64,000 nucleotides of DNA from Candidatus Latescibacterota bacterium (GTDB taxonomy: Bacteria; Latescibacterota; UBA2968): NCBI GenBank assembly GCA_965198115.1, contig OZ240241.1, positions 256,001 to 320,000 on the forward strand. Reading direction: 5' to 3'. The notes beneath the pieces were generated by a model. That model ran no database searches and had not been told where the DNA came from. It saw only the letters and a list, made by a program, of their open reading frames with translations. Both the position numbers and the translations under genes were made by a program. This document shows, piece after piece, positions 16,247-60,679 of this stretch (position 1 is its first letter; every line of letters starts with the position of its first letter).

Positions 16247-16275
16247 GTAGTCCCTCCCGCCACATTGCCAACGGA

Positions 16276-20958: not shown

Positions 20959-21017
20959 GTGAATACTCCTGTCTGAGGGTGCCCGGGGATCGGCCGCCCT
21001 TCTGACACTGGCATGGC

Positions 21018-21063
21018 ACTTAACGAGCAAGTGTTCCGTGGCACCGCGGACACGCAGTTAGGC
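21018..21063 (-). other. Short attC-like site
   Basis: Minus strand GCCTAAC-TGC-GTGTCCGCGG..CCACGGAACAC-TTGCTC-GTTAAGT, i.e. RYYYAAC..GTTRRRY around a hairpin with an extra base. Confidence 0.5.
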
Positions 21064-40593: not shown

Positions 40594-40631
40594 ATAGCCT
40601 TAGCCATTGATTGGACGTATCCCTTCCGAGC

Positions 40632-40935: not shown

Positions 40936-41102
40936 GGCTGGGTACCGTATAAGAAAGGTCGTGGAAGAGACTGAACCCGACAATGAAGTCGAGGAAGCCG
41001 AGCCTTGCTATTTCAGCAGTGTATCTTGTATCTACGGGTACAACTGCGCTGGAGAATGCCGACTATGCAAATATCTCGGTCTTCAGGTGGGATGGATGGT
41101 TA

Positions 41103-43778: not shown

Positions 43779-43974
43779 TTACCATGTCGATGTAGTCGAA
43801 GACAGGGTTCCATTGTCGATGCTGTGACATAGTCCTTTGGCCAGTCGGTAGGTCCGTTGTTGGCCGATAACATCCTGAAGAACCCGGCCTTTCATAGCTG
43901 TAGCCGCAATCCTCTTTCCCCGGTACAGCGGAGTGACGGCGAGGGCCAGACCTTTTCGCAGAAAGGCAAACGGC

Positions 43975-45281
43975 ATGCGTCTCACTAAAAATACGGTCAT
44001 CGGTCTCGTCGCATTGGCAGCATTCGGCTACGGCGGATACGAGATCTACTCTCTTCGCCAGGGACTGACACGCCTGGAATCCCGGATCGCGTCGGCAAGC
44101 CCCCAGGTCATACCTTTCGCATCCTCAGGGCGGACGACGCTTGCTCCAGGTTGGAACAAGATCGCTTCTCTTCCCGAGGTGGACCTCCTGCGATCAGCGG
44201 TCTTTCCCGACCGGAAGAACGCCCATGCCGTGGGAAGGGATGCGGGCATAGGTGTCGTTCTGTCGGTCACGCGGCGAGGATGGAGCTGGCGCCAGTCTTC
44301 TGTTGCCAAAGAGCTCTATGGGGTGGACTTCCCGACTGTGACGCACGGCTATGCCGTTGGCAGAGACGGTCTCGTGATAAGAACGGTCAATTCTGGGACA
44401 AACTGGGCATCGCAGAATCCTGGGCCTGCACTCGGTTGGGATCTCCGATCGGTCGCATTCACGGATCAGCTGGAAGGACACGTCGTTGGATCCGGTGGCC
44501 GGACCTGCGTACAATCGATGGCCATAAGTGGGATGGCTACAAAAAGCAGGTCATCGTCAGCCATCTAGCGGCAGTTCACTTCCACAACCGAAGTCGAGGT
44601 TACGCGATCGGGGAAAGGCCGAATGTCTATGCAACACAGAACGACGGCGAGAACTGGGAGGTTTTTCAGCAAAACAGCGGCTGGGATATGCTGGACGTAC
44701 ACTTCCCTACGCCGAACATCGGCTATGCTGTAGGGTTTAGGGGCAAGATCCTAAGGTCGGACGACATCGGCCGGAGTTGGGCGTCACAGGTTTCGGGAAT
44801 CAACGAGATGCTGAACTCTGTTTGGTTCCTGAGCGCAGACGAGGGGTTCGCAGTCGGGGGATCACGCGGTGGAACGGGAATCATCCTGGCCACCACGAAT
44901 GCGGGGGCTACGTGGACCTCCCAATCATCCCCCCAAGCCCTCTTCGATGTCAGATTCCTGACTCTCGAGTTTGGTTACGCCGTCGGAGACGCTGGCGCGT
45001 TCCTCGTGACTTCCGATCGTGGACAGACCTGGCGGGAGGTTGCGGAGTTTGGAGCACTCACGCACACCCACGCCGACGTCTGGCATCTCGTCGGCGACTC
45101 TGGACTTACGCTCAGGACCACCGACTCCGCGGCGTGAACTTCTCCATCGGGGCGTCTCCGACCGAAGAGAAGCTGAACGATGTCTTCTTTCCGGATAGCT
45201 TCCTGAGATTGATCGGATACGCGGTAGGCGAACGTGGTACTGTCATCCGGACGACGGACCGGGGAGATTCGTGGATCCTTA
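43975..45281 (+). pseudogene. YCF48/BNR-like beta-propeller protein with N-terminal anchor; two frameshifts; last codons cut by IS630
   Basis: Repeats L..V.F....GYAVG..G.I.RT.D.G..W spread over three frames (shifts near 44500 and 45130). Confidence 0.8.
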
Positions 45282-46544
45282 GTACTCCTGTTCTCAAATA
45301 CGGTGACGTATTCTAAGCAGACTTTGCCAAGGGCGTATCGTAGAACCTGAGTTTGTCGATCATCTCCGCGAGATCTGTTCGTGTGAACTTCCATTTGAAG
45401 GGTGTGGCGATACGTCCGTAGCGTTCCTGAAAACCGAGGATTCTTGCCTCAAGCTCTTCGAGCGATGCAAATTCGATAGGTGTCAGAGCCTTGCGTTTGA
45501 GGATCGAGAAGTAGATCTCGATCTGATTGAGCCAGCTTGCGTGGATCGGAAGGTGAACGGGGTGGATGTTTGGCCACTTCCCCTGGATACGGTCGATGCA
45601 TGTTTGCCCTCGGTGCGAGGAGCCATTATCCACGATGAGGTAGACTTTCTTTGCCGAGCAATAGGGTTTCCGGCTCATGATCAGGCTCAGGAGCCGGTTG
45701 AAGGGCTCGATACCCGAAGAAGACTCACAGAGACCGAAGATTCGACCATTGTGCACGTCGAGAGCAGCCAGATAGGCCAGGGCTCCTTTCCGCTCGTATT
45801 CGTGTTTCAACGCGTGCCGCTCTGTTCGAGGCTGGCGGTAGGGTAACGTGCTTGCGAGCTCGTGCTTGAATACTGGTCTTTTCGTCGGCAGAAAGTACAT
45901 ATTCCCTCGGCCCTAAAGGCTTTCCTTGCCATTGGCGGTGATACAGATCAAGGACTCTACCTGCTTTGGTTTGGAAGTCCGGGTCCCGTGGGAAAATCCA
46001 GGAACGATGATACCAAGGACGAATCGCGTCCTCGTTCAACCAGCGCCAGACAGTGGCGCCGCTGATCTTGGCAACGAAGCCCCTTTGCACTGCCTCGGCG
46101 GCAATCTCGGAACAGCTGAACCGCGAGAGCGGTATCCCGCTCTCGCTCGGTAGTTCACACGCCAGCGCCTTGATCTGAACGACCACCTGAGGGGGGAAAA
46201 ACCGGGCGGGCGCCCGGGACGAGATCTATCTTCGAGTCCCGAAAGACGCTCTTCGAAAAAGCGCTTACGCCATTTGCTTACGATCGGACGCGGGACATCC
46301 AACCGTTGGGCGATAATCTTGTTGGATAATCCCTCGGCGGCGAGAAGCACGATTTTCGATCGGATCACTTGATAATACGGTAACGTATATTGTCCAGCCA
46401 TTCGCTCGAGGTCGACCCGTTCCTTCTCAGACAGTAGCACCACATAAGGCGAACGTCTTGGCATTGTTCTCCTCCTTTTGAAGGAGAACATAAGCTACAA
46501 ATAATGTTCAGAACATACGTAATAATATTTATGAACCCATGCAC
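45282..46544 (-). mobile_element. IS630-family element
   Basis: HTH ORF A (46036-46464) with TTTTCCCCCC slippery site near 46190-46200; SADEKT, IVDNGSSH, HLPIHASWLNQIEIYFS; imperfect IRs; TA duplication at 45280-45281 and 46545-46546; extra frameshift near 45805. Confidence 0.92.
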
Positions 46545-46627: not shown

Positions 46628-48106
46628 TTAAACTTCACGCTTGGTGTCGATCCAGCGGTTGATGGTCACCTTCTGACGGGTGAAAAAAGAAACGCCTTCG
46701 CGGCCCTGGACGTGCAGGTCGCCGAAGAAGGAGTTGTTCCAGCCCGAGAACGGGAAGAAGGCCATGGGAGCCGGGACGCCGACGTTGATGCCGACCATTC
46801 CGGCGTTGACGTGATGTCGAAACGTGCGCGCCGCGCCCCCGCTCGACGTGAAGAGGACGGCCGCGTTGCCGAATCCGCTGTCGTTGCATCGTTCGATGGC
46901 TCCGTGGAGGTCGTCGGTGTGCATTACGGAGAGGACGGGGCCGAAGAGTTCGTCCTTCGCGATCGACATGTTGGGTTCGACCTTGTCGAAGACGGTGGGT
47001 CCGAGGTAGAAACCGTTGGGGGCGTCTTCGACTTTGACGTCTCGGCCGTCGACGAACAGGTCGGCCCCTTCTTTGAGACCGACATCGATTGAAGCGTGCA
47101 GGGATTCCAGATGCTGCCGCGTGACGACGGCACCCATCTGCGAGTCGGGATCGCGATCGGTCGGGCCGACGCGCATTTTACGGGCGGCATCGCCGAGGGG
47201 ATCGAGGAAGCGATTGCCAGCCTCTTCGGCACATACGAGAACGCTTCCGGCCATGCAACGCTCACCGGCGCACCCATAGGCGGAACCCATAACAGCATCG
47301 ATGGTGGAATCGAGGTCGGCGTCGGGCAGGACGACCATGTAGTTTTTCGCGCCCCCGGCGGACTGAACGCGCTTGCCGTTTTGCGTGGCGGTTTCATACA
47401 CGTATTTGGCGACGGGCGTCGAACCGACGAATGAAACGGTCCGGACGAGAGGATGCGTGAGGAGGGTGTCGACCGCGTCTTTACCCCCGTGAACGAGGTT
47501 GACGACGCCCTTCGGGCAACCCGCTTCCTCGAGCAGTTCGATCATTCGGATGGCGCTGAGCGGGACCTTTTCCGACGGTTTGAGCACGAATGTGTTTCCG
47601 CATACGAGGGCGACGGGGAGTGTCCAGAGAGGAACCATCACGGGGAAATTGAACGGCGAGATGGCCACGGAGACGCCGAGCGGCTGGCGAATCGTGTCGC
47701 AGTCGATGCCGCGAGCGATGTTTTCGAGCGATTCTCCCATCAGCAGGGATGGAGCGCCACAGGCGAATTCGACGACTTCGATTCCGCGCCGGACGGAGCC
47801 GCGTGACTCTTCGAGGGTTTTGCCGTTCTCACGCGTGACGATCTGGGACAGCTCTTCGAAATGGTCCTCGAGAAGCTGTTTGAACCTGAACATGATTTGC
47901 GCGCGATCGGTGGCCGGGGTCTCCGACCAATCCGGAAAGGCGTTATGGGCGGCTTCGATCGCTCGGCTGACTTCGTCAGCATCGCCCACGGGCGTCGCAG
48001 CGATCTGCGTCCCATCCGAAGGGTTGTAGACGGGGCTCGTTTCCTTCGCGGACGAGGCTTGCCATTCGCCTCCGATGAAGACACGGCAGGTTTCGGGTTG
48101 GGGCAT
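46628..48106 (-). CDS. mmsA: CoA-acylating methylmalonate/malonate-semialdehyde dehydrogenase
   Basis: RGIEVVEFACG, PFNFPVMVPLW, KPSEKVP, SFVGSTP, GKRVQSAGGAKN, GCAGERCMA, GMVGINVGVPAPMAFFPFSGW..SFFGDLH. Confidence 0.93.
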   Translation of the reverse strand: MPQPETCRVFIGGEWQASSAKETSPVYNPSDGTQIAATPVGDADEVSRAIEAAHNAFPDWSETPATDRAQIMFRFKQLLEDHFEELSQIVTRENGKTLEESRGSVRRGIEVVEFACGAPSLLMGESLENIARGIDCDTIRQPLGVSVAISPFNFPVMVPLWTLPVALVCGNTFVLKPSEKVPLSAIRMIELLEEAGCPKGVVNLVHGGKDAVDTLLTHPLVRTVSFVGSTPVAKYVYETATQNGKRVQSAGGAKNYMVVLPDADLDSTIDAVMGSAYGCAGERCMAGSVLVCAEEAGNRFLDPLGDAARKMRVGPTDRDPDSQMGAVVTRQHLESLHASIDVGLKEGADLFVDGRDVKVEDAPNGFYLGPTVFDKVEPNMSIAKDELFGPVLSVMHTDDLHGAIERCNDSGFGNAAVLFTSSGGAARTFRHHVNAGMVGINVGVPAPMAFFPFSGWNNSFFGDLHVQGREGVSFFTRQKVTINRWIDTKREV

Positions 48107-48136: not shown

Positions 48137-48920
48137 CTACGCGTCGATCATCGATTCCAAATTTTCGACACTGTCGGGGCGCTGACCGATACTGGGTGGA
48201 GCCAGAATTCGCTTCTGTTGTTCGGTCATGTCTCCGTTGAATTCGTCGAGCTCGTAGTAGTTCTGCGACCAAGTGGAATGGCCCGGGCTGAATTTATAGA
48301 GGAGCGCACGTCTTTCGTGATCGGCTTCCCAGGGCATCGTTCCGTGGATGAGGGCCTCGGTGAAGATGAGCGCATCGCCAGCCTCAACCTCCGGTTGACG
48401 GACGTATTCGGGTTGTCGATCGAAGGACTTCACGTCGGCCGGTAGATTCGGGACGAAGTTGCTCTTGTGACTGCCAGGAACGCACGCAAACCCGCCGTCG
48501 CCAGGACCTGCGTGCGTGAGGAAATAGGTGCAGACCGTGAGTCCGTTCCGCATCACGCCCGTCGTGGTAGCGATACCAGTGGTCGGCCGCCCGGCCGATG
48601 ACGTGGCCGGATCCGCCGTGCAAGTTCCCGCGCTTCGCCCCTTTTTGCATGAAAATGCAATAGTCGTGATCCGCACGGAATTTCTCGCCAACCAGCTCCA
48701 CCAGATAGGGCAGCGTTTTGGGATGGTCGAAGAGGTTGACGCAGGCCGGATCCCAATGTGATACGCGACTGGTGCGCTTGAAACCGGTTTCCTCGTCATA
48801 CGGTTCGGGAAACTCGCGATCGGCGATGGCGTTGAGGTTCGCGACCTCCTCTTTGCTCAGCGCGTTCTTGATGACGATGTAGCCTTGCAGGTCGAAGATG
48901 AATTTCTCTTCAGGTGTCAT
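48137..48920 (-). pseudogene. PhyH-family oxygenase (HGG motif), single frameshift near 48558
   Basis: FIFDLQGYIVIKNAL, DHDYCIFM, LHGGSG, ACVPGSHK, FTEALIHG; extra G in GACGGGCGTG relative to the paralogues. Confidence 0.88.
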
Positions 48921-48944
48921 GGAAACTCCTTGAAACCAAAAGCA

Positions 48945-48971
48945 GCCATGGAGAACACAGAGAACACGGAG
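48945..48971. repeat. 9-bp periodic repeat GCCATGGAG/AACACAGAG/AACACGGAG
   Basis: Three tandem 9-mers; inverted-type CTTCGAGTCTTTGTGCCTTCGTG at about 49236-49258. Confidence 0.65.
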
Positions 48972-49080
48972 GGACCTGTCCGCGGGTTCGAGGCCCTATC
49001 CGGGGATGAGAGTCGGAGTAGCTTCAGAGCATCTCCCGATTGTTGTGGTCTTACCGATATCCGACAGCGGAAAAAGCAGT

Positions 49081-49112
49081 GTCATCCCGGTACGCTTCTG
49101 AGCCGGGATCCA
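49081..49112. repeat. REP-like palindrome GTCATCCCGG..CCGGGATCCA (copy 2)
   Basis: GTCATCCCGGTACGCTTCTGAGCCGGGATCCA, compare 5883-5914. Confidence 0.75.
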
Positions 49113-49134
49113 TTCTGATTTCGGAAAGCGAACA

Positions 49135-49220
49135 CAACCCCGTTGGGTTGGATATACTCTCTGCCGATGGCCAAGGGTTCTTCGAACCCTTGGCTGAGAA
49201 ACTCAACCCCTTCGGGGTTG
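49135..49220. repeat. Three-hairpin REP-like element
   Basis: CAACCCCGTTGGGTTG; GCCAAGGGTTC-TTC-GAACCCTTGGC; CAACCCCTTCGGGGTTG. Confidence 0.75.
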
Positions 49221-49270
49221 GAACGGCCCACAATCCTTCGAGTCTTTGTGCCTTCGTGTATGTCTTGGTT

Positions 49271-50728
49271 TCACGTTCCGTGTTTGCGGAACGCGGGTTT
49301 CTCTCCTGGCACGGGCGAGTTATCGAAGGCACCCCTTGCCAGTACTGCATCCACTCCACCGAAGGAATCGATTTTGGCTTTCTGATCGGCTTTGGCATTC
49401 GCGTCTTCGGCTTCGGGATCGACGATCGCGCGCAGGTTGACCTCGTAGCGTTCGATCGTGGCGGCGTGGGACGGATCGGGGGCGAGGTCGTTGACTTCGT
49501 CGGGGTCTGCGGTGCAATCGAAGAGCTGGGGATCGTCATTCACGTAGTGAACGTATTTGTAGTCGCGGTCCCGTACCATGTAGAAGGCGTGTTCGGACCC
49601 GACCGCGTGGTACTCGCTGAAGACGGTGCGGTCCCTGTCGGGCCTGTTGGCGATCGTTAACATCGATTCGCCGGGGAGATCGGCGTCGGCGTCCGAATAC
49701 GATGCGCCGACGCATTCAACGGCGGTCTGGAAGGTATCGATCAGAGAAACAGGTGTTTCGCAGACCTTTCCCGCTGGGATATCGGGTCCGGCAGCAATCA
49801 TGGGAACGGCGGCCGCATCGTCATACATCGTAAACTTGCCGTAAATGCCACGAGAGCCGAAATGCTCCCCGTGATCGGACGTGTAGACGACGCGCGTGTT
49901 CTTTGAAAGACCCAGGGCGTCGATATGATCGAGCACACGACCGATTTGGGCGTCGACATACGTGCACGCGCCGAAGTAGGCGGCCATCATCTGCTGGATT
50001 TCGTCTTCGTTGAACTGGGGTGGGCCGAAATCGAAGAAGCGTCGAAAGTAGTCCATCGCTCCGTGTGCTGGCCAATTCTCTTCCTTCCATTGCTTTGGCC
50101 ACGGGAGGTCGCCGCCGTCGTAGAGGTCGAACATTTCCTGCGGGGCGGTGTAGGGTGGGTGTGGGCAAACGAACGAGAGGAAGCAGGCCCAGGGCTTGTC
50201 ATCCTCCTTGTGGGAGTCCAGCCAGGCGATACCGCCGTCGGCATTGCGCTTGTCGTATTGGAGATACGTCGAGTCACCGGGTCCTGCGTTCAGGATGCCG
50301 CCGCGTTTCTTGCGGAAGGGCGCGTCCTTCCGAATGCAACCGAGGAGATCTCCGACTCCCTCGACGACGTGGAGGGGTTCGATCTCTTGCGTGAAGCCGT
50401 GGTCGTCGCCCGGCCCGCTGAAGTGGAGTTTGCCAATCGAGTCCACCGTGTAGCCCTGTTCGCGCAAACGATGATGCCAGCTCTCGGTGCTGCCATCGTA
50501 GGGATGACCATTGTCCCAGGCCCGAATCTGGTGGACGTAGCGCCCGGTCGCGAGTGACGCGCGGACGGGCACGCAGATGGCGCAGTTCGTGTAGGCGTTG
50601 CTGAATCGCGTGCCTCGCTCGGCAAGCCGGTCGAGGTTGGGTGTCTGGACGACGGGATGGCTGTAGCAGCCGAGGGCATCGCGGTTGTGTTGGTCAGAGA
50701 TGATGTAGAGGAAATTGGCGGGATCCAA
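49271..50728 (-). CDS. Sulfatase (choline-sulfatase-like)
   Basis: IISDQH, ICVPVRASLATG (CxPxR), IGKLH, CPHPPY, YTSDHGE, SEYHA. Confidence 0.93.
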   Translation of the reverse strand: MDPANFLYIISDQHNRDALGCYSHPVVQTPNLDRLAERGTRFSNAYTNCAICVPVRASLATGRYVHQIRAWDNGHPYDGSTESWHHRLREQGYTVDSIGKLHFSGPGDDHGFTQEIEPLHVVEGVGDLLGCIRKDAPFRKKRGGILNAGPGDSTYLQYDKRNADGGIAWLDSHKEDDKPWACFLSFVCPHPPYTAPQEMFDLYDGGDLPWPKQWKEENWPAHGAMDYFRRFFDFGPPQFNEDEIQQMMAAYFGACTYVDAQIGRVLDHIDALGLSKNTRVVYTSDHGEHFGSRGIYGKFTMYDDAAAVPMIAAGPDIPAGKVCETPVSLIDTFQTAVECVGASYSDADADLPGESMLTIANRPDRDRTVFSEYHAVGSEHAFYMVRDRDYKYVHYVNDDPQLFDCTADPDEVNDLAPDPSHAATIERYEVNLRAIVDPEAEDANAKADQKAKIDSFGGVDAVLARGAFDNSPVPGEKPAFRKHGT

Positions 50729-50793
50729 GGCAGTATCCAGTTGAGTAGCGTTGTCAGTTGTCGGGGCGCCGGCCAGAGAGCGGCCGTCTAAGG

Positions 50794-52233
50794 CTACGCC
50801 GTCTGTCTAGGTGAATCGGCGATCATTCGGTCGAGGACGTTGCGCGTGATGCGTTGAACTCTTGAATCGACACCGAGAGGGCCGGAGCGGCCGGTTCTGG
50901 CCGGGATGTGCCCCGGCGGCTGTGAGAGGCCTTCAGGCCACCAGATGGTACCGGCGTTGAAGACCCAATTGCCTTTCGAACACGGGTAGACGAGCGCGCC
51001 GTGACGTTGATCGGGGTTCGATCGGTGCGATCGTGGAAAGAGGTCGGTTTCGGCGACGACCTCGAGTCCGTCGATGTCGGCATACGGCGGTCCGTGGTAT
51101 TCCCAGCCGATCAAACCCGGGATCACGTCGCCGTCGTCGAGATCCGTATCGTCGTAGATCCAGTGTTTGCCGTTCGAGACGACCCAATCGCCGGCTGCGC
51201 TTCCGTAAGACTTGGACCCCATCAAGCGCTCCTCGTCGCCCATTAGTTGCTTGCGGGCGAATGCGCGACAGGGTACGCCGGTGACCTCGCTGTCGTAGAA
51301 CTCGATTTCGTGGTAGACGGCGTTGCCCGACAGGAACGCGATGCTGAGTCCGTCGTCGCGGGCGGCGAGCGCGTTGTCGAACATGTCGCGTGACCAGTAT
51401 TCGTCGTGGGCGACGGAAATCAACGCCTTGCTTCTCGAGAGCACGCTGGGGTCGCGTTGTAGATCCAGGTTAGAGCAGTAGCCGACGTCATAGCCCTGCG
51501 ATTCGAGCCAGAATACGAGCGGGTGCTCCCAGAGGAGGAATTCGCCGGAGCCGATCGACAGGGGCGCGTCGAGGATCTGGCAGTATTTCGAAAAGGGTCG
51601 ATCGAGACTGACGCGCACATTCGGTCCGGAGTACCAGAGTGGCCCACTGCCGTCGTCATAAATCGAATCGTTTGCCGGCCACTTGTTGTACGCTTGCCAC
51701 GTCAGGTCGCTGACCTGGACGAGCAGGTCGGTTCGGGAACGGGTCTTGACGATGAAGATGACGTAGCTTTGCCAGCCCGGTTCGTCGCATCGGCAGAGCT
51801 TGGCAAGGTAGACTCCGCTGCACCAGTCATCTGGAATCGTGAATTCGGCCGTGACATCCCACCGGCACGTGCGGAGCCGCTCGATCGTCATCATCGGTAC
51901 GGCTTGTGGCTCGGCCGGAAACGGCCCTCCCGATCCTGCAAAACGTCCCCCTGCTCCCTCGTAACATCCCAGCCGATAGAAGTCCATCTGGACATTGCCT
52001 GCCGGGTCGAGGCTGACGTGGAAACTCATCGTCTCACCGGGATAGACGCTCGAAGCCGACGCGTAGCCCTCGATGGAGGATGACCTGAGACGACGCACCA
52101 TCGGGTAGCCAGCGAGCGCGGTGACGTCATCGAATTTCGTCCACTGTAGCTGCCACTCGAGCGTGCCCGCTCGCCGATTCTCTGCCGTCACGATGCTGTC
52201 AGTAACGGCACTGGATGCGCTGTAAGTACTCAA
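50794..52233 (-). CDS. N,N-dimethylformamidase large-subunit family domain protein
   Basis: IEGYAS..SV.PGE, SGVYLAKL, TWQAYNKW, VSLDRP, FWLESQGYDV, HDEYWS, FLSGNA, VFNAGT..W. Confidence 0.8.
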   Translation of the reverse strand: MSTYSASSAVTDSIVTAENRRAGTLEWQLQWTKFDDVTALAGYPMVRRLRSSSIEGYASASSVYPGETMSFHVSLDPAGNVQMDFYRLGCYEGAGGRFAGSGGPFPAEPQAVPMMTIERLRTCRWDVTAEFTIPDDWCSGVYLAKLCRCDEPGWQSYVIFIVKTRSRTDLLVQVSDLTWQAYNKWPANDSIYDDGSGPLWYSGPNVRVSLDRPFSKYCQILDAPLSIGSGEFLLWEHPLVFWLESQGYDVGYCSNLDLQRDPSVLSRSKALISVAHDEYWSRDMFDNALAARDDGLSIAFLSGNAVYHEIEFYDSEVTGVPCRAFARKQLMGDEERLMGSKSYGSAAGDWVVSNGKHWIYDDTDLDDGDVIPGLIGWEYHGPPYADIDGLEVVAETDLFPRSHRSNPDQRHGALVYPCSKGNWVFNAGTIWWPEGLSQPPGHIPARTGRSGPLGVDSRVQRITRNVLDRMIADSPRQTA

Positions 52234-52293
52234 GGACGTGTAACTTATCTTTGCCCGAGCAGCCGATCAAGGGTTTATTCGCGAGGGAACTGC

Positions 52294-52358
52294 GCCACTG
52301 AGCACACAGAGGACACTGAGAAACCCAGACTACCACGGAGAACACGGAGGACGCGGAG
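52294..52358. repeat. Two blocks of 9-bp periodic repeat
   Basis: GCCACTGAG-CACACAGAG-GACACTGAG and ACCACGGAG-AACACGGAG-GACGCGGAG. Confidence 0.7.
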
Positions 52359-52504
52359 AAAAGGCGAGGAAGTACTGGTGTCCGGTTGCACGCATTGAGG
52401 ATCGAGGCTCAGCCTTGCGGTGCGATGCCGAGAAGGCATTGGTCTGAACCCTTGCCTTGCCGCCCGCTTCCCCCGTCTCCCGCTCGAAAACACGAAGGTA
52501 AAAA

Positions 52505-53899
52505 ATGCCATCTGATAACAGACTCTTCGGCGTCACCGTTATGGCTGACTTTGTCCTGAACGAAGGCGTCGAGCCGATTCTCGATGGGTTGGCGAAGCAG
52601 GGTGTGAATGCGGTTGCGGTGAATCCGATCGTGACGGCGGAGGCGTCGGAGGGCGAGGGGAGCTGGCAGCCGCCGTCGGATGCAGGGAGCAGCCCGCGGT
52701 TGTTTGATCGGCCCTTATGGGGGAAGCGGGAGCTGTGGGTGAGGAGCGGGCCCAGCTATCGGCCGGAGGTGTCGCTGTATTCGGATACGTCATACAAACC
52801 GAAGCAGCCGAACGAACTGACAGAGGCACACGGTCATCTGGTGGGCGACTTCATCGATGAAGCACTGGAGCGAGGGTTCGAGGTCTATTTCCAGATTCCG
52901 GGGGCGACGCCGTCGGGGTTGCAGGACAAGGATCGGCGGCGGATGCCGGACGGTTCGATTCCGGATGCGATGGTCGATGTGGGAAGTCTGGCAAGCGAGG
53001 ACAGTCGGGCGTATCTGCGAGCGTTCGTGCGCGATCTGTGCCGGGCTTATCCCAACATCACGGGGTTTCGTCCCGACTGGCCGGAGTATCCGTGCTACAA
53101 ACTACCAGAGACGTTCGTCGATTTCGGGGAGCCCGTGAAGCAGTGGGCGGAGGCGCGGGGGGTCGCCTTCGAAGGCATTCGGTTGGAAGTCGGCGAGTTC
53201 TACGACTATCTGACGAATGACCTGAAGAACGATGACATCGCGGAGTTCGCGGAGGTCGAGCGAGGGCGATGGGCTCAGTTGCGGTTGCTGCGCCGGTTCC
53301 CGGCGATTGGTGCCTGGCTGCGCGTCAAGACGGCGCTGTCGCTCGATCTTCTGAGATTCTGGCGAGAGATGATCACCGAAGCTGGTGGCGAAGAGAAGGT
53401 GCTATCGGCCAACGCATTCATGCCGCCACTGACCTTGTTCACCGGGTTGGACATTGCCGGAACCCTGGAGATTGCCCAGGCGGTGTCTCCGAAGCTCTAC
53501 ACGATGCACTGGTCGGCGATGGTCGAGTTCTGGGGTCGGGAACTGATGGCAAACAACGATCTGGACGAGTCGCTGGTCGTTAAGGCGTTGGTCAACCTAT
53601 TCGATCTCGATGACGAGGCAACGGCGACCCGCATCAGTAACTACGGATATCCGGAGAATGATGAGCCGCATCCGATTCCAGACGAGCCGCAGGCTAGACG
53701 GATTCGCCAGGTGCTGGCGGATGCGAATGGGCGCGGGAAAGTGACGCCGCTGATGCACGGGTATGGGCCGATCGATGATTTCGTCAGGCGGTTCAGGATC
53801 GTGGCGGAGAGTGAGGCAGGTGGAGTGTGGATCAATCGGTATGGCTATTTGAGTGATGCGAAGCTGGAGGCGGTGGGGGAGGTTTGGCGGAACACTTGA
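52505..53899 (+). CDS. Hypothetical protein (possible TIM-barrel glycosidase-like fold)
   Basis: 464-aa ORF with genome-typical codon use; LFDRPLWG, GFRPDWPEYPCY, WINRYGYLSD. Confidence 0.75.
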   Translation: MPSDNRLFGVTVMADFVLNEGVEPILDGLAKQGVNAVAVNPIVTAEASEGEGSWQPPSDAGSSPRLFDRPLWGKRELWVRSGPSYRPEVSLYSDTSYKPKQPNELTEAHGHLVGDFIDEALERGFEVYFQIPGATPSGLQDKDRRRMPDGSIPDAMVDVGSLASEDSRAYLRAFVRDLCRAYPNITGFRPDWPEYPCYKLPETFVDFGEPVKQWAEARGVAFEGIRLEVGEFYDYLTNDLKNDDIAEFAEVERGRWAQLRLLRRFPAIGAWLRVKTALSLDLLRFWREMITEAGGEEKVLSANAFMPPLTLFTGLDIAGTLEIAQAVSPKLYTMHWSAMVEFWGRELMANNDLDESLVVKALVNLFDLDDEATATRISNYGYPENDEPHPIPDEPQARRIRQVLADANGRGKVTPLMHGYGPIDDFVRRFRIVAESEAGGVWINRYGYLSDAKLEAVGEVWRNT

Positions 53900-53937
53900 A
53901 CATTGGGAAATCGAGGATCGAACATCGAGAATTGAAG
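53896..53937. repeat. 7-bp periodic repeat (ATCGAGG/ATCGAAC/ATCGAGA/ATTGAAG)
   Basis: Shares TCGAGGATCGAACAT with 63481-63495. Confidence 0.6.
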
Positions 53938-54028
53938 AACCCACTTTTTCTGCCGAGGATGGCGAGCGTTTCCGGCATGATGTCTGTTCGATTCCGTGAG
54001 TGAGGGGTGTGAAACTCGACGGAAGGTT

Positions 54029-55951
54029 CTAGGCAAGCACTTTCTCGTATTCGATTCGATAAGGTCTGAATCCCAACCTTGCGTGAAGCTTCTGCGAGGC
54101 GATGTTCTCGATTCCGGTTTCCGACCGCAGCAGATGTGCGCCTCGTTCCCTGACGAGAGCTTCGACGTGCTCTAAAATTGCTGTGCCAACCCCTCTCTGG
54201 CGATGTGGCGTATCCACCGCGATATCGTTCACCCCGGCGATCGTCACGTCGTAGTCCTCGACATCTATAAACGGCTATATCCGGATCTCTCAACGAGATG
54301 AAGTGGGTGAAGGTGCCGTGGTTCCTGGCATGGGGGCGCGGTTAGAGTGTGCGGAACCTCTTCGGAATCTGCTCAGGGATGTTTATGTCTCCGACGGTAA
54401 GGAAGATCATATCGTTGAATGCGTCGAGTGTGCGGAATCCGCTGGCTCGGTTCTTGACGATTTGGACGATTCGGTTGAGGCCTTCGGCGATGGCGTTGGT
54501 AAGACGCGTGTTCACGAATGCGAGGACGCCGAAGAAGTGCTGTCGCAGGGTCCTGACGAACTTTCGCAGGGGTTCAAGTCGACTTCTGAGTGCGGACGTC
54601 GTCCAGCATTTCAGGAAGCGTTCGGCAGCCCAGGGCGCTTTGTATTCCCAGAACTGCTCGAACTCGTCCTTGAGTCTCCAGGCTCTATAGATTCGGTAGT
54701 TCGCCTTCTCCAGTGCTTTGAGTGTCCGAGTATCCCCTCTGGAGCGTGTCGCTGAGTGCCGGTAGAGGAGCCATCGGAGGCCCTTCATGGCTTTGCGCTC
54801 ATCCGGGGCAGCTTTACGCCACTGGTCCTTACGGACCTCGTCAACGGCGGCATTGAGAGCCTTGACGATGTGAAAGCGATCGAGGACCAGCTTGGCATTC
54901 GGACAGTGTTCCTGGATGGCTCCGATGTAAGCTTCGCTCATGTCGCAGCAGGCCCCACTCGATCTTGGATCTCTGGTAGGGACTGAGAGCCTCTGTGAAG
55001 AACCGATCGATCGTTTTACGCGCCCTGCCGCGGCCAACCCACACCACGCAGGAGCGGTCCAGATCGTAAACGAGCGTGGCGTACCTGTGACGCTTGGCGT
55101 AGGAGATCTCGTCGATCCCGATGGTTTTGAGCCCTCGGATACGATGACCTTCACGAAGCCGCGTGATGGATCGGTGAAGGAGATCCGACAGCGTCGAGGC
55201 AGAGATGCGCAGTAACTCGGACGCCGCCTTCTGCGTCATGGTCTGGCAGTAGCGCAGCATGGCATACTCGAAGCGATACGTCACCCGAGAGAACCGCTCC
55301 GCCCACGGAATCTCCTCGACCACACGACCGTGGGTAGGACACCGAATCTCCCGAGGATGGTAGAGAAGCCAGACCCTCCACCCGCACACCGGAATGTCAC
55401 GCCACCGACGCGGATGGGGCATTGTGCGGACGATTTTACCTCGACGGCCGCACTCCGGACAACAACAACCATTCTTATGTGGCTTTACGGCGATGACGAA
55501 ACAGCTTCTCCCCTCAAACCACCAGCTGACAACACGGAACCCCTTGAATCTCAGCAGTTTCGATAGTAATCTGCTCCCGGTCATAGGTCGCACCCCCTTC
55601 GCTTTGATTGTCCTACACACACAACCAAGCGTAGGGAACGATCTATGACCTTGTCATTCTATAGTTTCACCGTTGAGAAACCCGGATAGAGCCTATAAAC
55701 ACGACCCAGACGAATCCAAGGGCGATTCCATCCTCCTCAGCTATTTCGGCGATCGTTCGATCATCATCCGCGGAGGCATCCAGATGTGACAGGAACGAGT
55801 CCGGCTGCTCCGTGCTCAGCCATTTCTCTCGGTAGGCCTCGTATGAGGTCGTCCTCGCCCACGGGGTCTCGCTTTCATAATTCCCACAGCAATGCAACTC
55901 GAGAAGAAGATCTCGATCCGCCTTCACATCGATTGGTCGAAATGTCAGCAC
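54029..55951 (-). pseudogene. GNAT acetyltransferase split by ISL3 copy 2
   Basis: IAEEDGIALGFVWVVFI|DVED..IAVDTPHRQRGVGTAIL..ENIASQKLHARLGF; frame is restored when the IS is removed. Confidence 0.85.
54273..55693 (-). mobile_element. ISL3-family element, copy 2 (transposase frameshifted near 54955)
   Basis: Near-identical to 17178-18597; flanking repeat TATAAAC at 54266-54272 and 55694-55700; GGCCCCAC versus GGCCCAC in copy 1. Confidence 0.95.
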
Positions 55952-56021
55952 GGCTCTCGGTTGGAGTGATGAACCTGTCGTGTAGGGCAGCGCATGGTGG
56001 CACACGTCGAAGACGGTGCGA

Positions 56022-56759
56022 TTACGCTTCCACGGTGTCGGGTCGCCTGCCGATCGACGGAGGTGCAAGCATCCGCTTCTGCTGTTCGGTCAGCCCGCTG
56101 TAGTTGCTCAGGTCGTAGTAGTTGCTGGACCAGGCGGAGTGGCCGGGGCTATATTTGTAGAGAAAAGTCCGACGTTGATGGCTGGCTGTCCAGGGTGCCG
56201 TTCCGTGAACGAGGGCCTCGGTGAAGATCATAGCATCGCCGGGTTCGACGACAGGTTGAACGACATAGTGCGCATCGCGATCGAATTGACGGACGTCGTC
56301 CGGAATGCTATTCAGGAAGTTCGTTTTGTGCGTGCCGGGGATGCAGGCGAAGCCGCCATCGCCGGGTCCGGCCGGTGAGGAGAAATACGTCACGACCGTC
56401 AGGCCGGTCCGGATGATTCCGTCCCGATACTTGTACCAATGGTCGCCCCCGCGCCCGTGATCCCCGCCGTGCAGCCTGCCTCGCTTCTCGCCCTGTGACA
56501 TGAAGATCGCGTAGTCGTGGTCCAGACGGACCTTCGGTCCGAGCCACTCTGTGAGGTAAGGGACGATCGCGGTGTGGTCGATCAGGTCCTGGAAGATCCC
56601 GCCCCACGCCGATGGTCCCCAGACCTCCTCGTCCGCCTTCTCCGTCTCTAGCTTTTCATCCGTGATCGCGTTCATTTCTTCGACTTCGCCATCGGTGAGC
56701 ACGTCTTTGATGACGATGTAGCCGTCGAGATCGAATACGAAACGTTCTTCGTTGGTCAT
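56022..56759 (-). CDS. PhyH-family oxygenase (HGG motif), tandem copy 1
   Basis: FVFDLDGYIVIKDVL, RLHGGDHG, CIPGTHK, FTEALVHG, QRR. Confidence 0.92.
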   Translation of the reverse strand: MTNEERFVFDLDGYIVIKDVLTDGEVEEMNAITDEKLETEKADEEVWGPSAWGGIFQDLIDHTAIVPYLTEWLGPKVRLDHDYAIFMSQGEKRGRLHGGDHGRGGDHWYKYRDGIIRTGLTVVTYFSSPAGPGDGGFACIPGTHKTNFLNSIPDDVRQFDRDAHYVVQPVVEPGDAMIFTEALVHGTAPWTASHQRRTFLYKYSPGHSAWSSNYYDLSNYSGLTEQQKRMLAPPSIGRRPDTVEA

Positions 56760-57062
56760 GGCGAAATCCTTCCGTTGGAACCACCGATCACACAGAACAC
56801 ATCGAGGGGTGTGACGCCAAGCCTAGGTCGGGATTGCAGTATGTGGAAAGTTGAGTGTATGGAGTATGACTGCGAACCCTGCGCTCTGTTCTTCGCGTAT
56901 TCGCGACTTCGTGTTGCATTTCACCGCCAGCCGACCTCCTGGCGGGCTTGCATCATCATCAGACACGTCCGGGGCGTCGGGATACGACAGTCACCGTCGC
57001 GTTCAGGACGAGGGGCACTTCGGGTCCGATGTCGACTCGCGCGGCTCCCTATACCCTCTCGC

Positions 57063-57800
57063 TCAGGCGTCGACGGTATCGGGTCGTCCTCCAATGGACG
57101 GCGGGGCGAGCATTCGGAGCTGCTGCTCGGTCAGGTCGCTGTATTGGCTGAGGTCGTAATAGTCACCTGCCCAGGCGGAATGGCCGGGGGCGTATTTGTA
57201 GAGGAAAGCACGCCGCTGATGGTTGGCAGTCCAGGGTGACGTTCCGTGGACGAGGGCTTCGGTGAAGATCAAGGCATCTCCGGGTTCGACGACGGGCTGA
57301 ACGACATAGTGTACGTCGCGTTCGAACTGACGGACATCGTCAGGGATGCTGGTCAGGAAGTTCGTCTTGTGGGTTCCGGGGATGCAGGCAAAGCCGCCGT
57401 CGCCGGGTCCGGCGGGCGCCGCGAAGTATGTCACGACCGTCAGTCCTGTTCGAATGACGCCGTCCTGATACTTGTACCAATGATCGCCTTCGTGCCCGTT
57501 ATCCCCGCCGTGCAGCCTGCCGCGCTTCTCGCCCTGTGACATGAAGATCGCGTAGTCGTGGTCCAGACGAACCTTCGGTCCCAGCCATTCGGTCAGGTAC
57601 GGGACGATCGTGGGATGGTCGATCAGGTCCTGGAAGATGCTGTCCCACGCGGACGGTCGGCCGACCTCCTTAGCCGCTTCCTTCGGTTTTTGTTTCTCGT
57701 CGGTGATCGCGTTCATCTCTGTGACTTCGTCATCCGTGAGTACGTTCTTGATGACGATGTAGCCGTCGAGATCGAATATGAAGCGTTCTTCGTTAGTCAT
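57063..57800 (-). CDS. PhyH-family oxygenase (HGG motif), tandem copy 2
   Basis: Same length and closely similar to 56022-56759; RLHGGDNG; ATG 57800 with AAGGA. Confidence 0.92.
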   Translation of the reverse strand: MTNEERFIFDLDGYIVIKNVLTDDEVTEMNAITDEKQKPKEAAKEVGRPSAWDSIFQDLIDHPTIVPYLTEWLGPKVRLDHDYAIFMSQGEKRGRLHGGDNGHEGDHWYKYQDGVIRTGLTVVTYFAAPAGPGDGGFACIPGTHKTNFLTSIPDDVRQFERDVHYVVQPVVEPGDALIFTEALVHGTSPWTANHQRRAFLYKYAPGHSAWAGDYYDLSQYSDLTEQQLRMLAPPSIGGRPDTVDA

Positions 57801-57820
57801 GGCGAAATCCTTCAGTTGGA

Positions 57821-57884
57821 ACCACCGACTACACAGAACACACAGAGGAGTTGGCACCACAAATACACACAAATGAACACGAAT
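57821..57884. repeat. 9-bp periodic repeat blocks
   Basis: ACCACCGAC-TACACAGAA-CACACAGAG and ACCACAAAT-ACACACAAAT-GAACACGAAT. Confidence 0.6.
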
Positions 57885-58099
57885 GGGTGGAAAACCCAAA
57901 AAACCAAGGCCCGATCAAGGAGTGGATTGACGGTAGGGCCCGGAAGGATTCGCAACGTCAATGTGGTTCCCGTTGTCGCGGTCGTTGGCCGCAGTTCACC
58001 GCATTTCTAAACGCCTGGAAGTCCCTCGATTCTCTATGCGCCTCCCCGTTCTCTGCGCTGAATGAGATCCGTCTTTCTTCGCGTCTTCGTGTTTGCATT

Positions 58100-58672
58100 T
58101 CACCGCCAGCCGATTTCCTGGCGAGCTTGCATAATCAACAGTCGGGTCGGGGGTGTTCGCGACACGACGGTGACGGTCGCGTTCAGTACGAGTGGAACCT
58201 CCGGGCCGATGTCCTGACGAGCGCGGAGCTCTATCACGGCGATGAGGCCTGTGTCGGACACGCGCCAGGGCTTCATGAAAAGGACGGCGCGTAGCGGCCC
58301 TTCGGATCCTTCGGGCGAGATCATCGACAGTGCTTGGGGTTCGGGTCTTTGCGAAATGTCTTCGAGGATTTCTCGGACTTCAGAACGGATCTCGACGATT
58401 TCGAAGAACGATGCGAAGCTGCTGTCCTGATCCTCGAAGTAGATCGTGAGACCATAGGCCTCCAGCGCAGCTGCGTCCGGCATAAAAACCTGGAAGCGGA
58501 CGGAATCATCCGCCGCAGGACGAGGAACGGGCGCGATTCCGCTGTAAACGGGCGGTTCCTCGACCCTGGAATCGATGAAGACGGGAAACACGCGTGTGGT
58601 CGGCGTGGCACCCGAGAGGTCCTGACCGAAGCCAGGCGGTGTCCCGGCCAACATCAGGACCAGCAGGATCAC
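58100..58672 (-). CDS. Hypothetical exported protein
   Basis: Hydrophobic signal-like N-terminus; start overlaps the upstream stop (GTGA). Confidence 0.6.
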   Translation of the reverse strand: MILLVLMLAGTPPGFGQDLSGATPTTRVFPVFIDSRVEEPPVYSGIAPVPRPAADDSVRFQVFMPDAAALEAYGLTIYFEDQDSSFASFFEIVEIRSEVREILEDISQRPEPQALSMISPEGSEGPLRAVLFMKPWRVSDTGLIAVIELRARQDIGPEVPLVLNATVTVVSRTPPTRLLIMQARQEIGWR

Positions 58673-59388
58673 GCCGGGTTACCGTGCTTGTTGATGACGG
58701 TGATTTCCGACGAACCGTCCGCGCGGATGGACTTGACCAGGAGCGAGACGCGGTTGTTTTCGTTCAATGCGTTCCAGAATGTCTGAGCCGTTTCCGCGGG
58801 ATCGTTCGCCAGGTCGACGAGATAGGGCTCGCCTGAAAAGGAAAGTACCGGGTCGCCATCATCGTCGTAGGTGGTGATGCAATGACCGTAGCCGGGCAGG
58901 AAACGATCATAGGCAAAGTAGTGTCGGGCGGGGTGGTCTGCACTCTTGCCAACGGTTTTGAGGACGGCCAATCGGTAGGCGACGTCGTCATCGTCGAGGT
59001 CCACGATACCTGAAATGCGCGGCGTCAGAATGGGTGGGTCCGGTTCGAACGACCTCGTGTCCAGCGCGGACTCGAACGTGTCGCCCCGCGCGAGGTGTTC
59101 GACGATGGTATCCGTCTGGTCGCCGTTGGTGACGATGTGACACGATCCGTGGATTCGAATCGGATGGTATACGACGAGAGAGAGGTCGGTCACCTTGGAT
59201 TCGTCGAACGCCCAGGTTCTGACGGTGTCGCCTTCGTGGATGAAGATGCGATTTCGACTTCCCTCGCTCCGTCCCATGATCCAGTAGACCTGAAGGACTC
59301 GACTCTCGTCGGGTGTCTGGCCAATGACGATGCCGCGACCCGGGTAGGTGGCGTTTCGGATTCTGGTCATTTCGGAGGTGTGGATCAC
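58669..59388 (-). CDS. IMP cyclohydrolase (PurO-like)
   Basis: YPGRGIVIG, YWIMGRSEGSRNRIF, IVTNGDQTDTI, FEPDPP..TPRISG, GHCITTY, LNENNRVSL. Confidence 0.85.
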   Translation of the reverse strand: MIHTSEMTRIRNATYPGRGIVIGQTPDESRVLQVYWIMGRSEGSRNRIFIHEGDTVRTWAFDESKVTDLSLVVYHPIRIHGSCHIVTNGDQTDTIVEHLARGDTFESALDTRSFEPDPPILTPRISGIVDLDDDDVAYRLAVLKTVGKSADHPARHYFAYDRFLPGYGHCITTYDDDGDPVLSFSGEPYLVDLANDPAETAQTFWNALNENNRVSLLVKSIRADGSSEITVINKHGNPA

Positions 59389-59401
59389 GTTGCGTGTTCC
59401 C

Positions 59402-60679
59402 TCAGGGGGACCGGAAGAGGTCCGCGTATGTTTCGGGTGTTTCGAAGATACCGCCGCTCTGGTCGTAATAGGTGGCATCGAGCGTAAAAGCCCCGTTCGC
59501 GGGACGCAGCCACGTTCCGTCGACCGGGTAGTCTGCCAGAAGGCGATTCCACGCACCGTAGGTCTCTGGACCGTTCGATTCCATCAGGCCGCCGTAGAGC
59601 CCGGGGAAACGCGGGAGCCGGGCAGCGATATTCTTGTTCCATTCGACGAGGGTCGGGACGCACCCGTTGTCGGCGACGAGGCACTCGAGGCCCGCGTCGC
59701 TGGCTGCCCGCACCATTTCGAACGCGAGCGAAAGGGTTTTGCCGGCGGGTTTAATGGCGACGGCGCCGTAGCCCTGTTTGGCGCGGAACCCGATGTCTTC
59801 GACCGTGTGGACGCTTTCGTCCGCGGCACACAGCGCGGGCAGGTCGGCTACGTTGACATCGACTGAATCGCTGAACGGCTCTTCGATGAGGATGATTCGA
59901 TCCAAGGCGTCGATGGTTTCCGCGTGGGCGAGGAGGCCGGCGATCGACGCTTTCTCGCGGTAGCGTCCGTTGGCGTCCAGATGGTAGAGGACGCGACCTG
60001 ATTCAGTTCGATCGGTTCGACAATCCTTTGCCAGGCTGTGGATCTGTGACAGCCACGCCTTGTCCTTTTCGAGCATCTGTTGCTCATCGCCCGGGTGGCC
60101 GATCTTGATCTTGAGGACGTGGGCGCCGGCTTCGATCAGCGCGTCCAGTTCGTCCATAGGTAAGTTATAGTTCACGGCGGGAGCAATCACCAGGTGATCC
60201 TGGTGGTGGGAAAGATTTGGGGCTGCCCAGTTCGGGATGAGGTCATCGAATCGGGTGATGCCGTTTTCCTTGGCGTAAAGAAGCCAGGCGGAGTTGTCGA
60301 GCGCGACGAGCGCGGTCAGCACGAATGTGAGTCGGAGGGTGTTGCGTCCGGTGATACGGCAACCGTATTCGTGGGCGATGGGGAGGACGTCACCGAGGAT
60401 CGAAGGCGGGTCTGCGTAATCGTGTCCGGTGACGTGTTGAAGCGCGTGCTCGAGCACGGCCGACTGTAGAAGGTTTCCGCCCACCTCCGTGTGTGTGGTG
60501 AAGACGTCCGGGTCGGACCACAAAACGGCGAGTCCGCCGATGCCGATCGCCTCGTGGCCGTTCTCAGAACGGAGACGGACAACACAGTTCCATTTCTCGT
60601 GGAAAGCCGATCCTTTGAATCCGAAGGGTCGTGCGAACGGTTCGCGCTGGATTTCGAGGTCGGATGAGGTGATAATCAT
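59402..60679 (-). CDS. Enolase-superfamily protein (L-Ala-D/L-Glu epimerase-like)
   Basis: PFGFKG, LKIKIG, LDANGRY, IEEPF, ADES, AIKPAGK. Confidence 0.85.
   Translation of the reverse strand: MIITSSDLEIQREPFARPFGFKGSAFHEKWNCVVRLRSENGHEAIGIGGLAVLWSDPDVFTTHTEVGGNLLQSAVLEHALQHVTGHDYADPPSILGDVLPIAHEYGCRITGRNTLRLTFVLTALVALDNSAWLLYAKENGITRFDDLIPNWAAPNLSHHQDHLVIAPAVNYNLPMDELDALIEAGAHVLKIKIGHPGDEQQMLEKDKAWLSQIHSLAKDCRTDRTESGRVLYHLDANGRYREKASIAGLLAHAETIDALDRIILIEEPFSDSVDVNVADLPALCAADESVHTVEDIGFRAKQGYGAVAIKPAGKTLSLAFEMVRAASDAGLECLVADNGCVPTLVEWNKNIAARLPRFPGLYGGLMESNGPETYGAWNRLLADYPVDGTWLRPANGAFTLDATYYDQSGGIFETPETYADLFRSP

What the first reader, a model, noticed from the sequence alone, without database searches (positions are those of the whole stretch)
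48137..57800. PhyH paralogues with HxG in place of HxD: candidate Fe(II)/2OG halogenases
Seen: the proximal iron motif reads NLHGGSG (His codon 48618-48620), RLHGGDHG (56469-56471) and RLHGGDNG (57510-57512). The distal His (ALxHGT) and the 2OG-binding Arg region (xRR) are intact. Five other PhyH domains in this window keep the canonical motif (WHRD, WHSD, LHVD, PHGD, WHQD). Established: replacing the facial-triad carboxylate with Ala/Gly opens a halide site in SyrB2 (Ala) and in WelO5 and BesD (Gly). Inference: this is an expanded stand-alone halogenase-like or otherwise non-canonical subfamily, sitting among catabolic genes rather than in a biosynthetic cluster. The 48137 copy has no acidic residue at +3, which argues against a simply shifted Asp ligand.
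Basis: partly seen in the sequence, partly recalled or inferred. Interest (0 to 1): 0.8.

Follow-up and report, generated by a model that had tools for sequence, protein, structure and literature searches.

The report
HygX-type oxygenases, not halogenases
These three iron-enzyme genes (one broken by a frameshift) do lack the usual iron-binding aspartate, but all carry a glutamate near the second histidine that likely replaces it, as in the antibiotic enzyme HygX, so they are probably oxygenases of unknown substrate and not chlorinating enzymes.

Summary
The three HxG motifs are real. The closest solved relative by sequence and Foldseek is HygX, which has the same LHGG...EALMH layout; a review describes this as a relocated carboxylate in an oxidative cyclase. 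That Glu is kept in 120 of 120 close homologues and 108 of 118 distant ones, whereas SyrB2 and CytC3 have Ser there. Nine accessions of this clade are absent from a published 3D-mined halogenase atlas. Fe-Glu geometry could not be measured here, and Asp80 is equally conserved. The 48137-48920 copy is frameshifted, also in assembled contigs of the holding sample; its intact orthologues sit in a conserved sulfatase / oxygenase / methylmalonate-semialdehyde dehydrogenase gene string (7 of 12 top loci), pointing to catabolism. A further non-HxD copy lies at 1135-1941. Better halogenase candidates lie elsewhere in this genome: a related group with an altered Glu site, one relative of which is in the atlas. 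The scan reached the HygX reading before on other genomes. Verdict: new members of a known kind; halogenase about 6%.

The parts
56022..56759 (-). PhyH-family Fe(II)/2OG oxygenase, 245 aa, intact. His97 56469-56471, Gly99 56463-56465, Glu181 56217-56219, His185 56205-56207, Arg196 56172-56174, Lys202 56154-56156
57063..57800 (-). Tandem paralogue, 245 aa, intact, 84% identical to the 56022 gene. His97 57510-57512, Glu181 57258-57260, His185 57246-57248, Arg196 57213-57215
48137..48920 (-). Third paralogue, frameshifted near 48558 (likely pseudogene). Proximal His 48618-48620 in the N-half; Glu 48356-48358, distal His 48344-48346 and Arg 48311-48313 in the C-half. Halves are 48% and 66% identical to the 56022 protein; an intact 260-aa orthologue (L026) is 93-94% identical
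49271..50728 (-). Sulfatase (PF00884; best NCBIfam match choline-sulfatase, below its cut-off), directly upstream of the 48137 copy; conserved neighbour
46628..48106 (-). CoA-acylating methylmalonate-semialdehyde dehydrogenase (TIGR01722, 612 bits, cut-off 448.5), directly downstream of the 48137 copy; conserved neighbour
50794..52233 (-). N,N-dimethylformamidase beta-subunit-like protein (PF20254) upstream of the sulfatase; same position seen in L026 only
52505..53899 (+). 464-aa protein without Pfam or NCBIfam match, divergent from the string; homologues near the string in L026 and L045
1135..1941 (-).

Best explanation
The three genes encode PhyH-fold Fe(II)/2-oxoglutarate oxygenases with the HygX motif H-X-G...E-X3-H, in which Glu181 likely replaces the lost Asp as third iron ligand, so they would have no halide site and likely oxygenate a small catabolic substrate. 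Shown: motif, fold, homology to HygX, conservation, gene context. Inferred: His97, Glu181 and His185 bind iron, Arg196 anchors 2OG, and with bidentate 2OG the remaining site is for O2; an Fe(IV)=O abstracts hydrogen and rebounds OH (or closes a C-O bond as HygX does). For the operon-type copy (broken here, intact in relatives) I commit to: the sulfatase removes a sulfate, the oxygenase hydroxylates a carbon next to a heteroatom so that a 3-oxo acid of the (methyl)malonate-semialdehyde type is released, and the downstream dehydrogenase converts it to acetyl- or propionyl-CoA. That substrate step rests on gene order only (about 0.3). The 56022/57063 pair is a recent tandem duplicate with no conserved neighbours found; its substrate is probably a sugar- or acid-type compound. 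The stated confidence is for 'Glu-completed site, not a halogenase'.
For: HygX is the top sequence hit among solved structures (E 4.3e-9 single protein; 1.1e-13 with the profile, next hit EctD 2.6e-5) and fills Foldseek ranks 1-10 (E 4.6e-14, TM 0.67). The alignment pairs LHGG with HygX LHGG and FTEALVHG with NEALMHG. A review states that HygX has H-X-G...E-X3-H with the acid relocated, and that it forms an orthoester in vitro (PMC13374393, section 7 read). Glu181 is kept in 120 of 120 close homologues, 108 of 118 scorable domains from the 150 distant representatives and 99 of 99 scorable domains in 79 genome loci (partly circular, since one search pattern contained this Glu). In this genome 31 of 35 HxG domains have Asp/Glu at -4, against 4 of 159 HxD/E domains. 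Position +2 is not always small: among 118 representatives it is Pro (4), Leu, Phe or Ile (1 each) with the Glu kept. SyrB2 (FWSTLMH) and CytC3 (FWSNTMH) have Ser at -4. The halogenase criterion in PMC13489965 is absence of any further ligand in 3D; nine accessions of this clade occur in none of its 11 searchable supplements, although the same MAGs DHW51 and CMK14 contribute 2 and 3 other proteins to the atlas. The string sulfatase / oxygenase / MMSDH is seen in 7 of the 12 best loci from 30 related genomes and in 4 of 79 loci of a wider scan (the two sets overlap). No carrier protein, NRPS or PKS domain was found among representatives of the recurring and directly flanking neighbour families (40 and 64 proteins; at E 1e-12, which can miss short ACPs).
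Against: No coordinates were available, so the Fe-Glu distance was not measured. The HygX ligand assignment comes from a review; the primary paper was not held. Identity to HygX is only about 24%, and by VIA-align Z, canonical fungal enzymes rank above it (TlxI Z 19.5, 215 aligned, rmsd 3.2; HygX Z 17.8, 199 aligned, rmsd 3.2). Asp80 is as conserved as Glu181 (Asp or Glu in 111 of 118). HygX Lys137 aligns with Thr121 here, so HygX chemistry need not carry over. The HxG / Glu pairing in this genome is essentially one group, so the counts are not independent events. Absence from the atlas may have other causes (not in the input set); three of the nine accessions come from MAGs with no atlas entry at all.
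Confidence: 0.85

Rival explanations
1. Free-standing radical halogenases: two His ligands plus chloride, with Glu181 serving only as a second-sphere or substrate-binding residue.
For: HxG is invariant in 120 of 120 close homologues. All halogenases reported before had 2His-1Gly/Ala (PMC13489965). A relative from the same wider group (HCR17211.1 = P0317, 27% identical to the 56022 protein) is in that paper's predicted atlas, cluster 4.
Against: The Glu matches the relocated HygX acid. SyrB2 and CytC3 have Ser at this position. The atlas member has Ala/Gly, not Glu, at this place, and nine accessions of the Glu-bearing clade are absent from the supplements. Larger residues at +2 occur with the Glu kept. 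The context is catabolic.
Confidence: 0.06
2. Non-halogenating oxygenase, but the third ligand is another residue (Asp80 or His81 of RLDHDY; less likely Asp100 or His107), or the site is a water-completed two-His site.
For: Asp80 and His81 are invariant in 120 of 120 close homologues; among 118 representatives Asp80 is Asp/Glu in 111 and His81 is His in 89.
Against: HygX has Leu at the Asp80 position but shares the Glu. Asp100 and His107 are not kept in distant relatives (His107 in 11 of 118; position 100 mostly Gly, Pro or Ala), and the 48137 copy has Ser at +3.
Confidence: 0.07
3. Same Glu-completed site, but the reaction is HygX-like oxidative C-O ring closure or alcohol oxidation on a sugar, not hydroxylation with cleavage. 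This competes only on reaction type and lies inside the 0.85 above.
For: The only characterised enzyme found with this motif forms an orthoester on a pseudo-trisaccharide. Neighbours in relatives include enolase-superfamily enzymes (14 of 79 loci), an aminoglycoside 3-N-acetyltransferase-like protein (14 of 79), xylose-isomerase-like barrels and GH32. A Lys/Arg at 202 (106 of 118) could stand in for HygX Lys137 (inference).
Against: HygX Lys137 itself is not kept. No aminoglycoside or orthosomycin biosynthetic cluster was seen around any locus examined. A downstream semialdehyde dehydrogenase fits cleavage to an aldehyde better.
Confidence: 0.25

Closest known systems
HygX of Streptomyces hygroscopicus (hygromycin B orthoester-forming Fe/2OG oxygenase; PDB 4XC9, 4XCA, 4XCB, 4ZPI)
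   Same: PhyH fold; LHGG proximal motif; E-X3-H distal motif (by my count of the alignment, HygX His102, Gly104, Glu202, His206, Arg217 match His97, Gly99, Glu181, His185, Arg196); top sequence and Foldseek hit.
   Different: About 24% identity; HygX Lys137 aligns with Thr121, and the query's Lys202 with a HygX Gly; catabolic rather than antibiotic-cluster context; present in 31 of 31 related genomes searched; substrate unknown.
Fe/2OG radical halogenases (SyrB2, CytC3, BtnX, AspX; WelO5 and BesD recalled, not examined)
   Same: Gly (or Ala) two residues after the proximal His; same superfamily fold.
   Different: SyrB2 and CytC3 have Ser where these proteins have Glu. Halogenases are defined by having no third protein ligand (PMC13489965).
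Predicted halogenase cluster 4 of the Kipouros and Chang 2026 atlas (PMC13489965, supplementary file 8)
   Same: At least one member (HCR17211.1) belongs to the same wider HygX-related group, has HygX as top PDB hit (E 3.2e-4), and comes from the same phyla.
   Different: That member reads HSG...FLAGAQTH, with no acid at either place and a one-residue insertion; only 27% identical to the 56022 protein. Cluster 4 is a prediction in that paper; I saw no assay of it in the parts read (2 of 7 parts plus passages).
PhyH family PF05721 expansions of Poribacteria
   Same: Very large PhyH repertoire: about 350 profile hits, fragments included, in this genome; over 1.9% of genes in Poribacteria (PMC3909097, passages).
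   Different: The passages read do not discuss iron-motif variants.

Membership tests
PhyH family (PF05721) Fe/2OG oxygenase | Pfam match above the gathering score; double-stranded beta-helix fold; two His and the 2OG Arg | tested here: met
   44-46 bits against a cut-off of 22; model pLDDT 88.9; Foldseek and VIA hits are PhyH-fold enzymes
HygX-type site (H-X-G...E-X3-H) | Gly two residues after the proximal His | tested here: met
HygX-type site (H-X-G...E-X3-H) | Glu four residues before the distal His, aligned with the HygX Glu | tested here: met
   3 of 3 copies; alignment; 120 of 120 and 108 of 118 homologues
HygX-type site (H-X-G...E-X3-H) | That Glu binds the iron | not testable with these tools
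   The structure tool returns no coordinates and no model with iron could be obtained
HygX orthologue (orthoester synthase) | Active-site Lys137 | tested here: not met
   Aligns with Thr121; Thr, Cys or Ser in close homologues
HygX orthologue (orthoester synthase) | Lies in a hygromycin or orthosomycin biosynthetic cluster | tested here: not met
   Window and neighbour scans show catabolic and housekeeping genes
Fe/2OG radical halogenase | Gly or Ala in place of the facial-triad Asp/Glu | tested here: met
Fe/2OG radical halogenase | No substitute acid at the HygX position (SyrB2 and CytC3 have Ser four residues before the distal His) | tested here: not met
   Glu in 3 of 3 copies against Ser in SyrB2 and CytC3; BtnX, AspX, WelO5 and BesD not seen at this position
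Fe/2OG radical halogenase | No third protein ligand within bonding distance of iron in 3D | tested here: inconclusive
   Not measured directly. Indirect: homology to HygX and absence of nine clade accessions from a 3D-mined atlas
Fe/2OG radical halogenase | Halide-dependent C-H halogenation | not testable with these tools
   Needs an assay

The most novel reading that the evidence does not exclude
These enzymes are the living stem group of a new halogenase lineage. In these bacteria the iron-binding acid first moved from HxD to E-X3-H (HygX state, including the three genes here), and a derived group of 17 domains in this genome then remodelled that loop, six of them losing the acid altogether to give true two-His sites, which are the atlas's untested cluster 4. 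That would be a two-step route from hydroxylase to halogenase with every stage present in one genome, and removing Glu181 from the 56022 enzyme should open an anion site.
Probability: 0.2. Interest if true: 0.6.

Novelty: new member of a known kind. Interest (0 to 1): 0.27.

Why it matters
It removes a false halogenase lead and gives a simple filter: HxG or HxA in a PhyH protein should be read together with the residue four before the distal His. It also shows that the HygX site, which my paper searches found described only for that one antibiotic enzyme, marks a large, conserved family (1,228 representatives at 50% clustering score E 1e-10 or better, of which the best 150 were inspected) used in the catabolic gene sets of uncultured Latescibacterota and Poribacteria. 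The conserved sulfatase / oxygenase / MMSDH string is a handle on a substrate for one of hundreds of orphan PhyH enzymes.

Tried and rejected
A shifted Asp at +3 (HGGD): rejected, Asp in only 26 of 120 close homologues (Glu in 78) and mostly Gly, Pro or Ala in distant ones. His107: rejected, 11 of 118. Sequencing slip as the cause of the 48558 frameshift: not supported, since contigs of the holding sample carry the same base, but those runs may be the source and are not independent. Asp at -5 as a marker: uninformative, 46 of 159 canonical domains have it. No solved halogenase appeared among the 22 PDB sequences hit by the profile at E up to 10 or in the listed fold-search rows; this absence is not evidence of a different fold. 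No NCBIfam model matches the two intact proteins. No RNA holder was listed, which says nothing about expression. The promoter and terminator scan of 55600-58200 was at chance level. The primary HygX paper and one follow-up were not held. Paper searches found no description of this subfamily or of the three-gene string; the library lacks most subscription journals. I could not establish which family the 237-248 aa Latescibacterota and Poribacteria proteins of atlas cluster 1 belong to; none of their accessions appeared among the cluster members listed, but their sequences were not seen. The careful IQ-TREE run did not finish; the quick tree was used. Census caveat: 123 of 352 aligned pieces were dropped for lacking a His at one of the two columns, and at least one row outside the group was misaligned (L099 is canonical HQD).
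Full report
Observation. The genes at 56022-56759 and 57063-57800 are intact 245-residue proteins, 84% identical, a tandem duplicate. The copy at 48137-48920 is split over two frames by one extra base near 48558. Contigs from runs X1 and X2 (one sample, possibly the source) cover the stretch with no difference, and a short low-depth contig from X3 lacks the base; I read it as a likely pseudogene in this strain. The five canonical motifs are present. A further PhyH gene, 1135-1941, reads LHCA and is also non-canonical.

Each copy has Glu four residues before the distal His. The best PDB match is HygX, by single sequence (E 4.3e-9), by a 120-sequence profile (E 1.1e-13; next EctD 2.6e-5) and by Foldseek on an AlphaFold2 model of mean pLDDT 88.9 (ranks 1-10). 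VIA-align ranks canonical fungal enzymes higher (TlxI Z 19.5, HygX 17.8), so the fold alone does not single HygX out; the motifs do. The alignment pairs LHGG with LHGG and FTEALVHG with NEALMHG. My count of that alignment puts a Lys at HygX 137, as in the review, so the numbering agrees. The review (PMC13374393; passages and section 7 read) says HygX has an H-X-G...E-X3-H triad with the acid relocated, is reminiscent of halogenases, and forms the orthoester of hygromycin B in vitro. I did not see the primary paper.

Conservation. In the 120 best of 650 homologues, His97, Gly98, Gly99, Glu181, His185, Arg196 and Lys202 are invariant. Of 163 domains from the best 150 representatives at 50% clustering, 118 had both His; 108 of these have Glu at 181, while +2 is Gly in 93 and otherwise Ala, Ser, Pro, Asp, Leu, Phe, Ile, His, Asn or Thr. 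Asp80 is as conserved (Asp or Glu in 111 of 118) and remains a formal rival ligand, but HygX has Leu there. SyrB2 and CytC3, seen in the alignments, have Ser four residues before their distal His, as does EctD.

Genome census. The 8.43-Mb genome gives 352 aligned PhyH-like pieces, 229 with both His. Acid at -4: 31 of 35 HxG, 6 of 19 HxA/S, 4 of 159 HxD/E. On a FastTree tree, 57 domains form one group (support 0.939) with 37 non-HxD domains carrying the -4 acid, 19 without it, one with both acids, and no canonical member. With the motif residues masked, the split of these 57 from 36 others (30 canonical domains drawn at random plus 6 outside domains with a -4 acid) held at SH-aLRT 91 in a quick IQ-TREE run. 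This is one event, not 35 independent ones.

External control. Kipouros and Chang (PMC13489965; parts 1-2 of 7, passages and supplement searches) define radical halogenases by two His and no further ligand in 3D, and list 946 predictions. Nine accessions of the Glu-bearing clade (four of the proteins measured at 61-65% identity to the 56022 protein) occur in none of 11 searchable supplements (one scanned file could not be searched). For two of them the locus tags show the same MAG supplies other atlas entries (DHW51, 2; CMK14, 3); two more probably do, judged by accession prefix; three come from MAGs with no entry and say nothing; two were not placed. In contrast HCR17211.1, from the related group with the altered loop, is in cluster 4. 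This is indirect, since I cannot confirm that the absent proteins were in the input.

Context. Named relatives are mostly Latescibacterota and Poribacteria, with some Chloroflexota, Armatimonadota and others; the nearest named string (L026, 84-94% identity per gene) is titled Latescibacteria, so the window probably comes from that phylum. The family is present in 31 of 31 genomes searched. The orthologues of the 48137 copy are intact and lie between a sulfatase and a CoA-acylating methylmalonate-semialdehyde dehydrogenase in 7 of the 12 best loci (an eighth has the sulfatase only) and in 4 of 79 wider loci; the sets overlap and the genomes are kin. Other recurring neighbours are enolase-superfamily enzymes, an aminoglycoside N-acetyltransferase-like protein, sugar-isomerase-like barrels, ankyrin proteins and other PhyH genes. 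No carrier protein, NRPS or PKS domain appeared in the 104 neighbour representatives scanned.

Mechanism. Shown: motif, fold, conservation, context. Inferred: His97, Glu181 and His185 hold Fe(II); Arg196 holds 2OG; with bidentate 2OG one site is left for O2 and none for halide (established chemistry of the family); Fe(IV)=O abstracts hydrogen. For the operon type I favour hydroxylation next to a heteroatom after desulfation, releasing a 3-oxo acid for the dehydrogenase (gene order only, about 0.3). HygX-like ring closure on a sugar is the main alternative reaction. HygX Lys137 is Thr here, while Lys or Arg 202 (106 of 118) sits on another strand and could play a like role (inference).

Comparison and verdict. 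These work like HygX at the level of the iron site but are not HygX orthologues (Lys137 and cluster context not met). They fail the substitute-acid test for halogenases; the 3D test is open. Three earlier notes of this scan reached the same reading on other genomes; I had recorded mine before looking, and they are not evidence. New here are the frameshift, the conserved three-gene string, the atlas control and the related group with the altered Glu site. Novelty: new member of a known kind. Interest 0.27.

Noticed in passing
G000:C1, 17 domains, e.g. 87778-91437 (L001), 1405671-1407573 (L003), 2273357-2274337 (L002), 5299225-5300793 (L004): A group related to the finding's genes (SH-aLRT 98; nested in the FastTree tree) has a one-residue insertion before the distal His (mostly GAQTH). 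At the Glu position 11 have Asp, 4 Gly/Ala and 2 Asn, so six have no acid at either place and are better two-His candidates. Several are second domains of tandem two-domain proteins whose first domain lacks the proximal His. A 67%-identical relative, HCR17211.1, is in cluster 4 of the published halogenase atlas.
   Followed up: partly
G000:C1:5805977-5806861 (L006): A close member of the group with both acids, LHADYG and FTEALTH; three representatives share this pairing. Possibly a four-ligand site or a regained Asp.
   Followed up: no
window 1135-1941 and 11502-11762: The HCA...ECVTH gene has a near copy of its C-terminal third (IMPESVTHGVL) at about 11.5-11.8 kb, cut off next to a transposase-like ORF.
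   Followed up: partly
window 63517-64000: The canonical WHQD gene at the window end also looks frameshifted: the distal His region is in another frame. Reads not checked.
   Followed up: no
window 18787-21030: Alginate lyase domain (PF05426) and a canonical PhyH domain in one 747-residue frame.
   Followed up: no
window 58669-59556: IMP cyclohydrolase-like protein (PF07826; archaeal PurO models below cut-off) upstream of the tandem pair.
   Followed up: no
window 32337-33044: A 235-residue protein with a flagellin N-terminal helical region only, beside a sensor kinase with propeller repeats.
   Followed up: no
window 11810-18524, 38700-46491, 54342-55620: Many repeated transposase-like ORFs (one matched DDE_Tnp_ISAZ013; the others judged from repeated sequence, not scanned). 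The one at 54342-55620 is split in two frames and separates the tandem pair from the sulfatase string.
   Followed up: no
G000:C1:3004291-3005064 (L102), 5844910-5845746 (L103), 1530114-1531025 (L100): Three PhyH domains outside the main group also pair HxG with an acid at -4 (HSG...DCCYH, HSG...DRCYH, HGG...EEIFH), which may be independent relocations.
   Followed up: partly
L017, L019, L023-L025 and others (Poribacteria): In 18 of 79 loci an ankyrin-repeat gene lies next to the oxygenase, and in 14 an aminoglycoside 3-N-acetyltransferase-like gene lies nearby.
   Followed up: no
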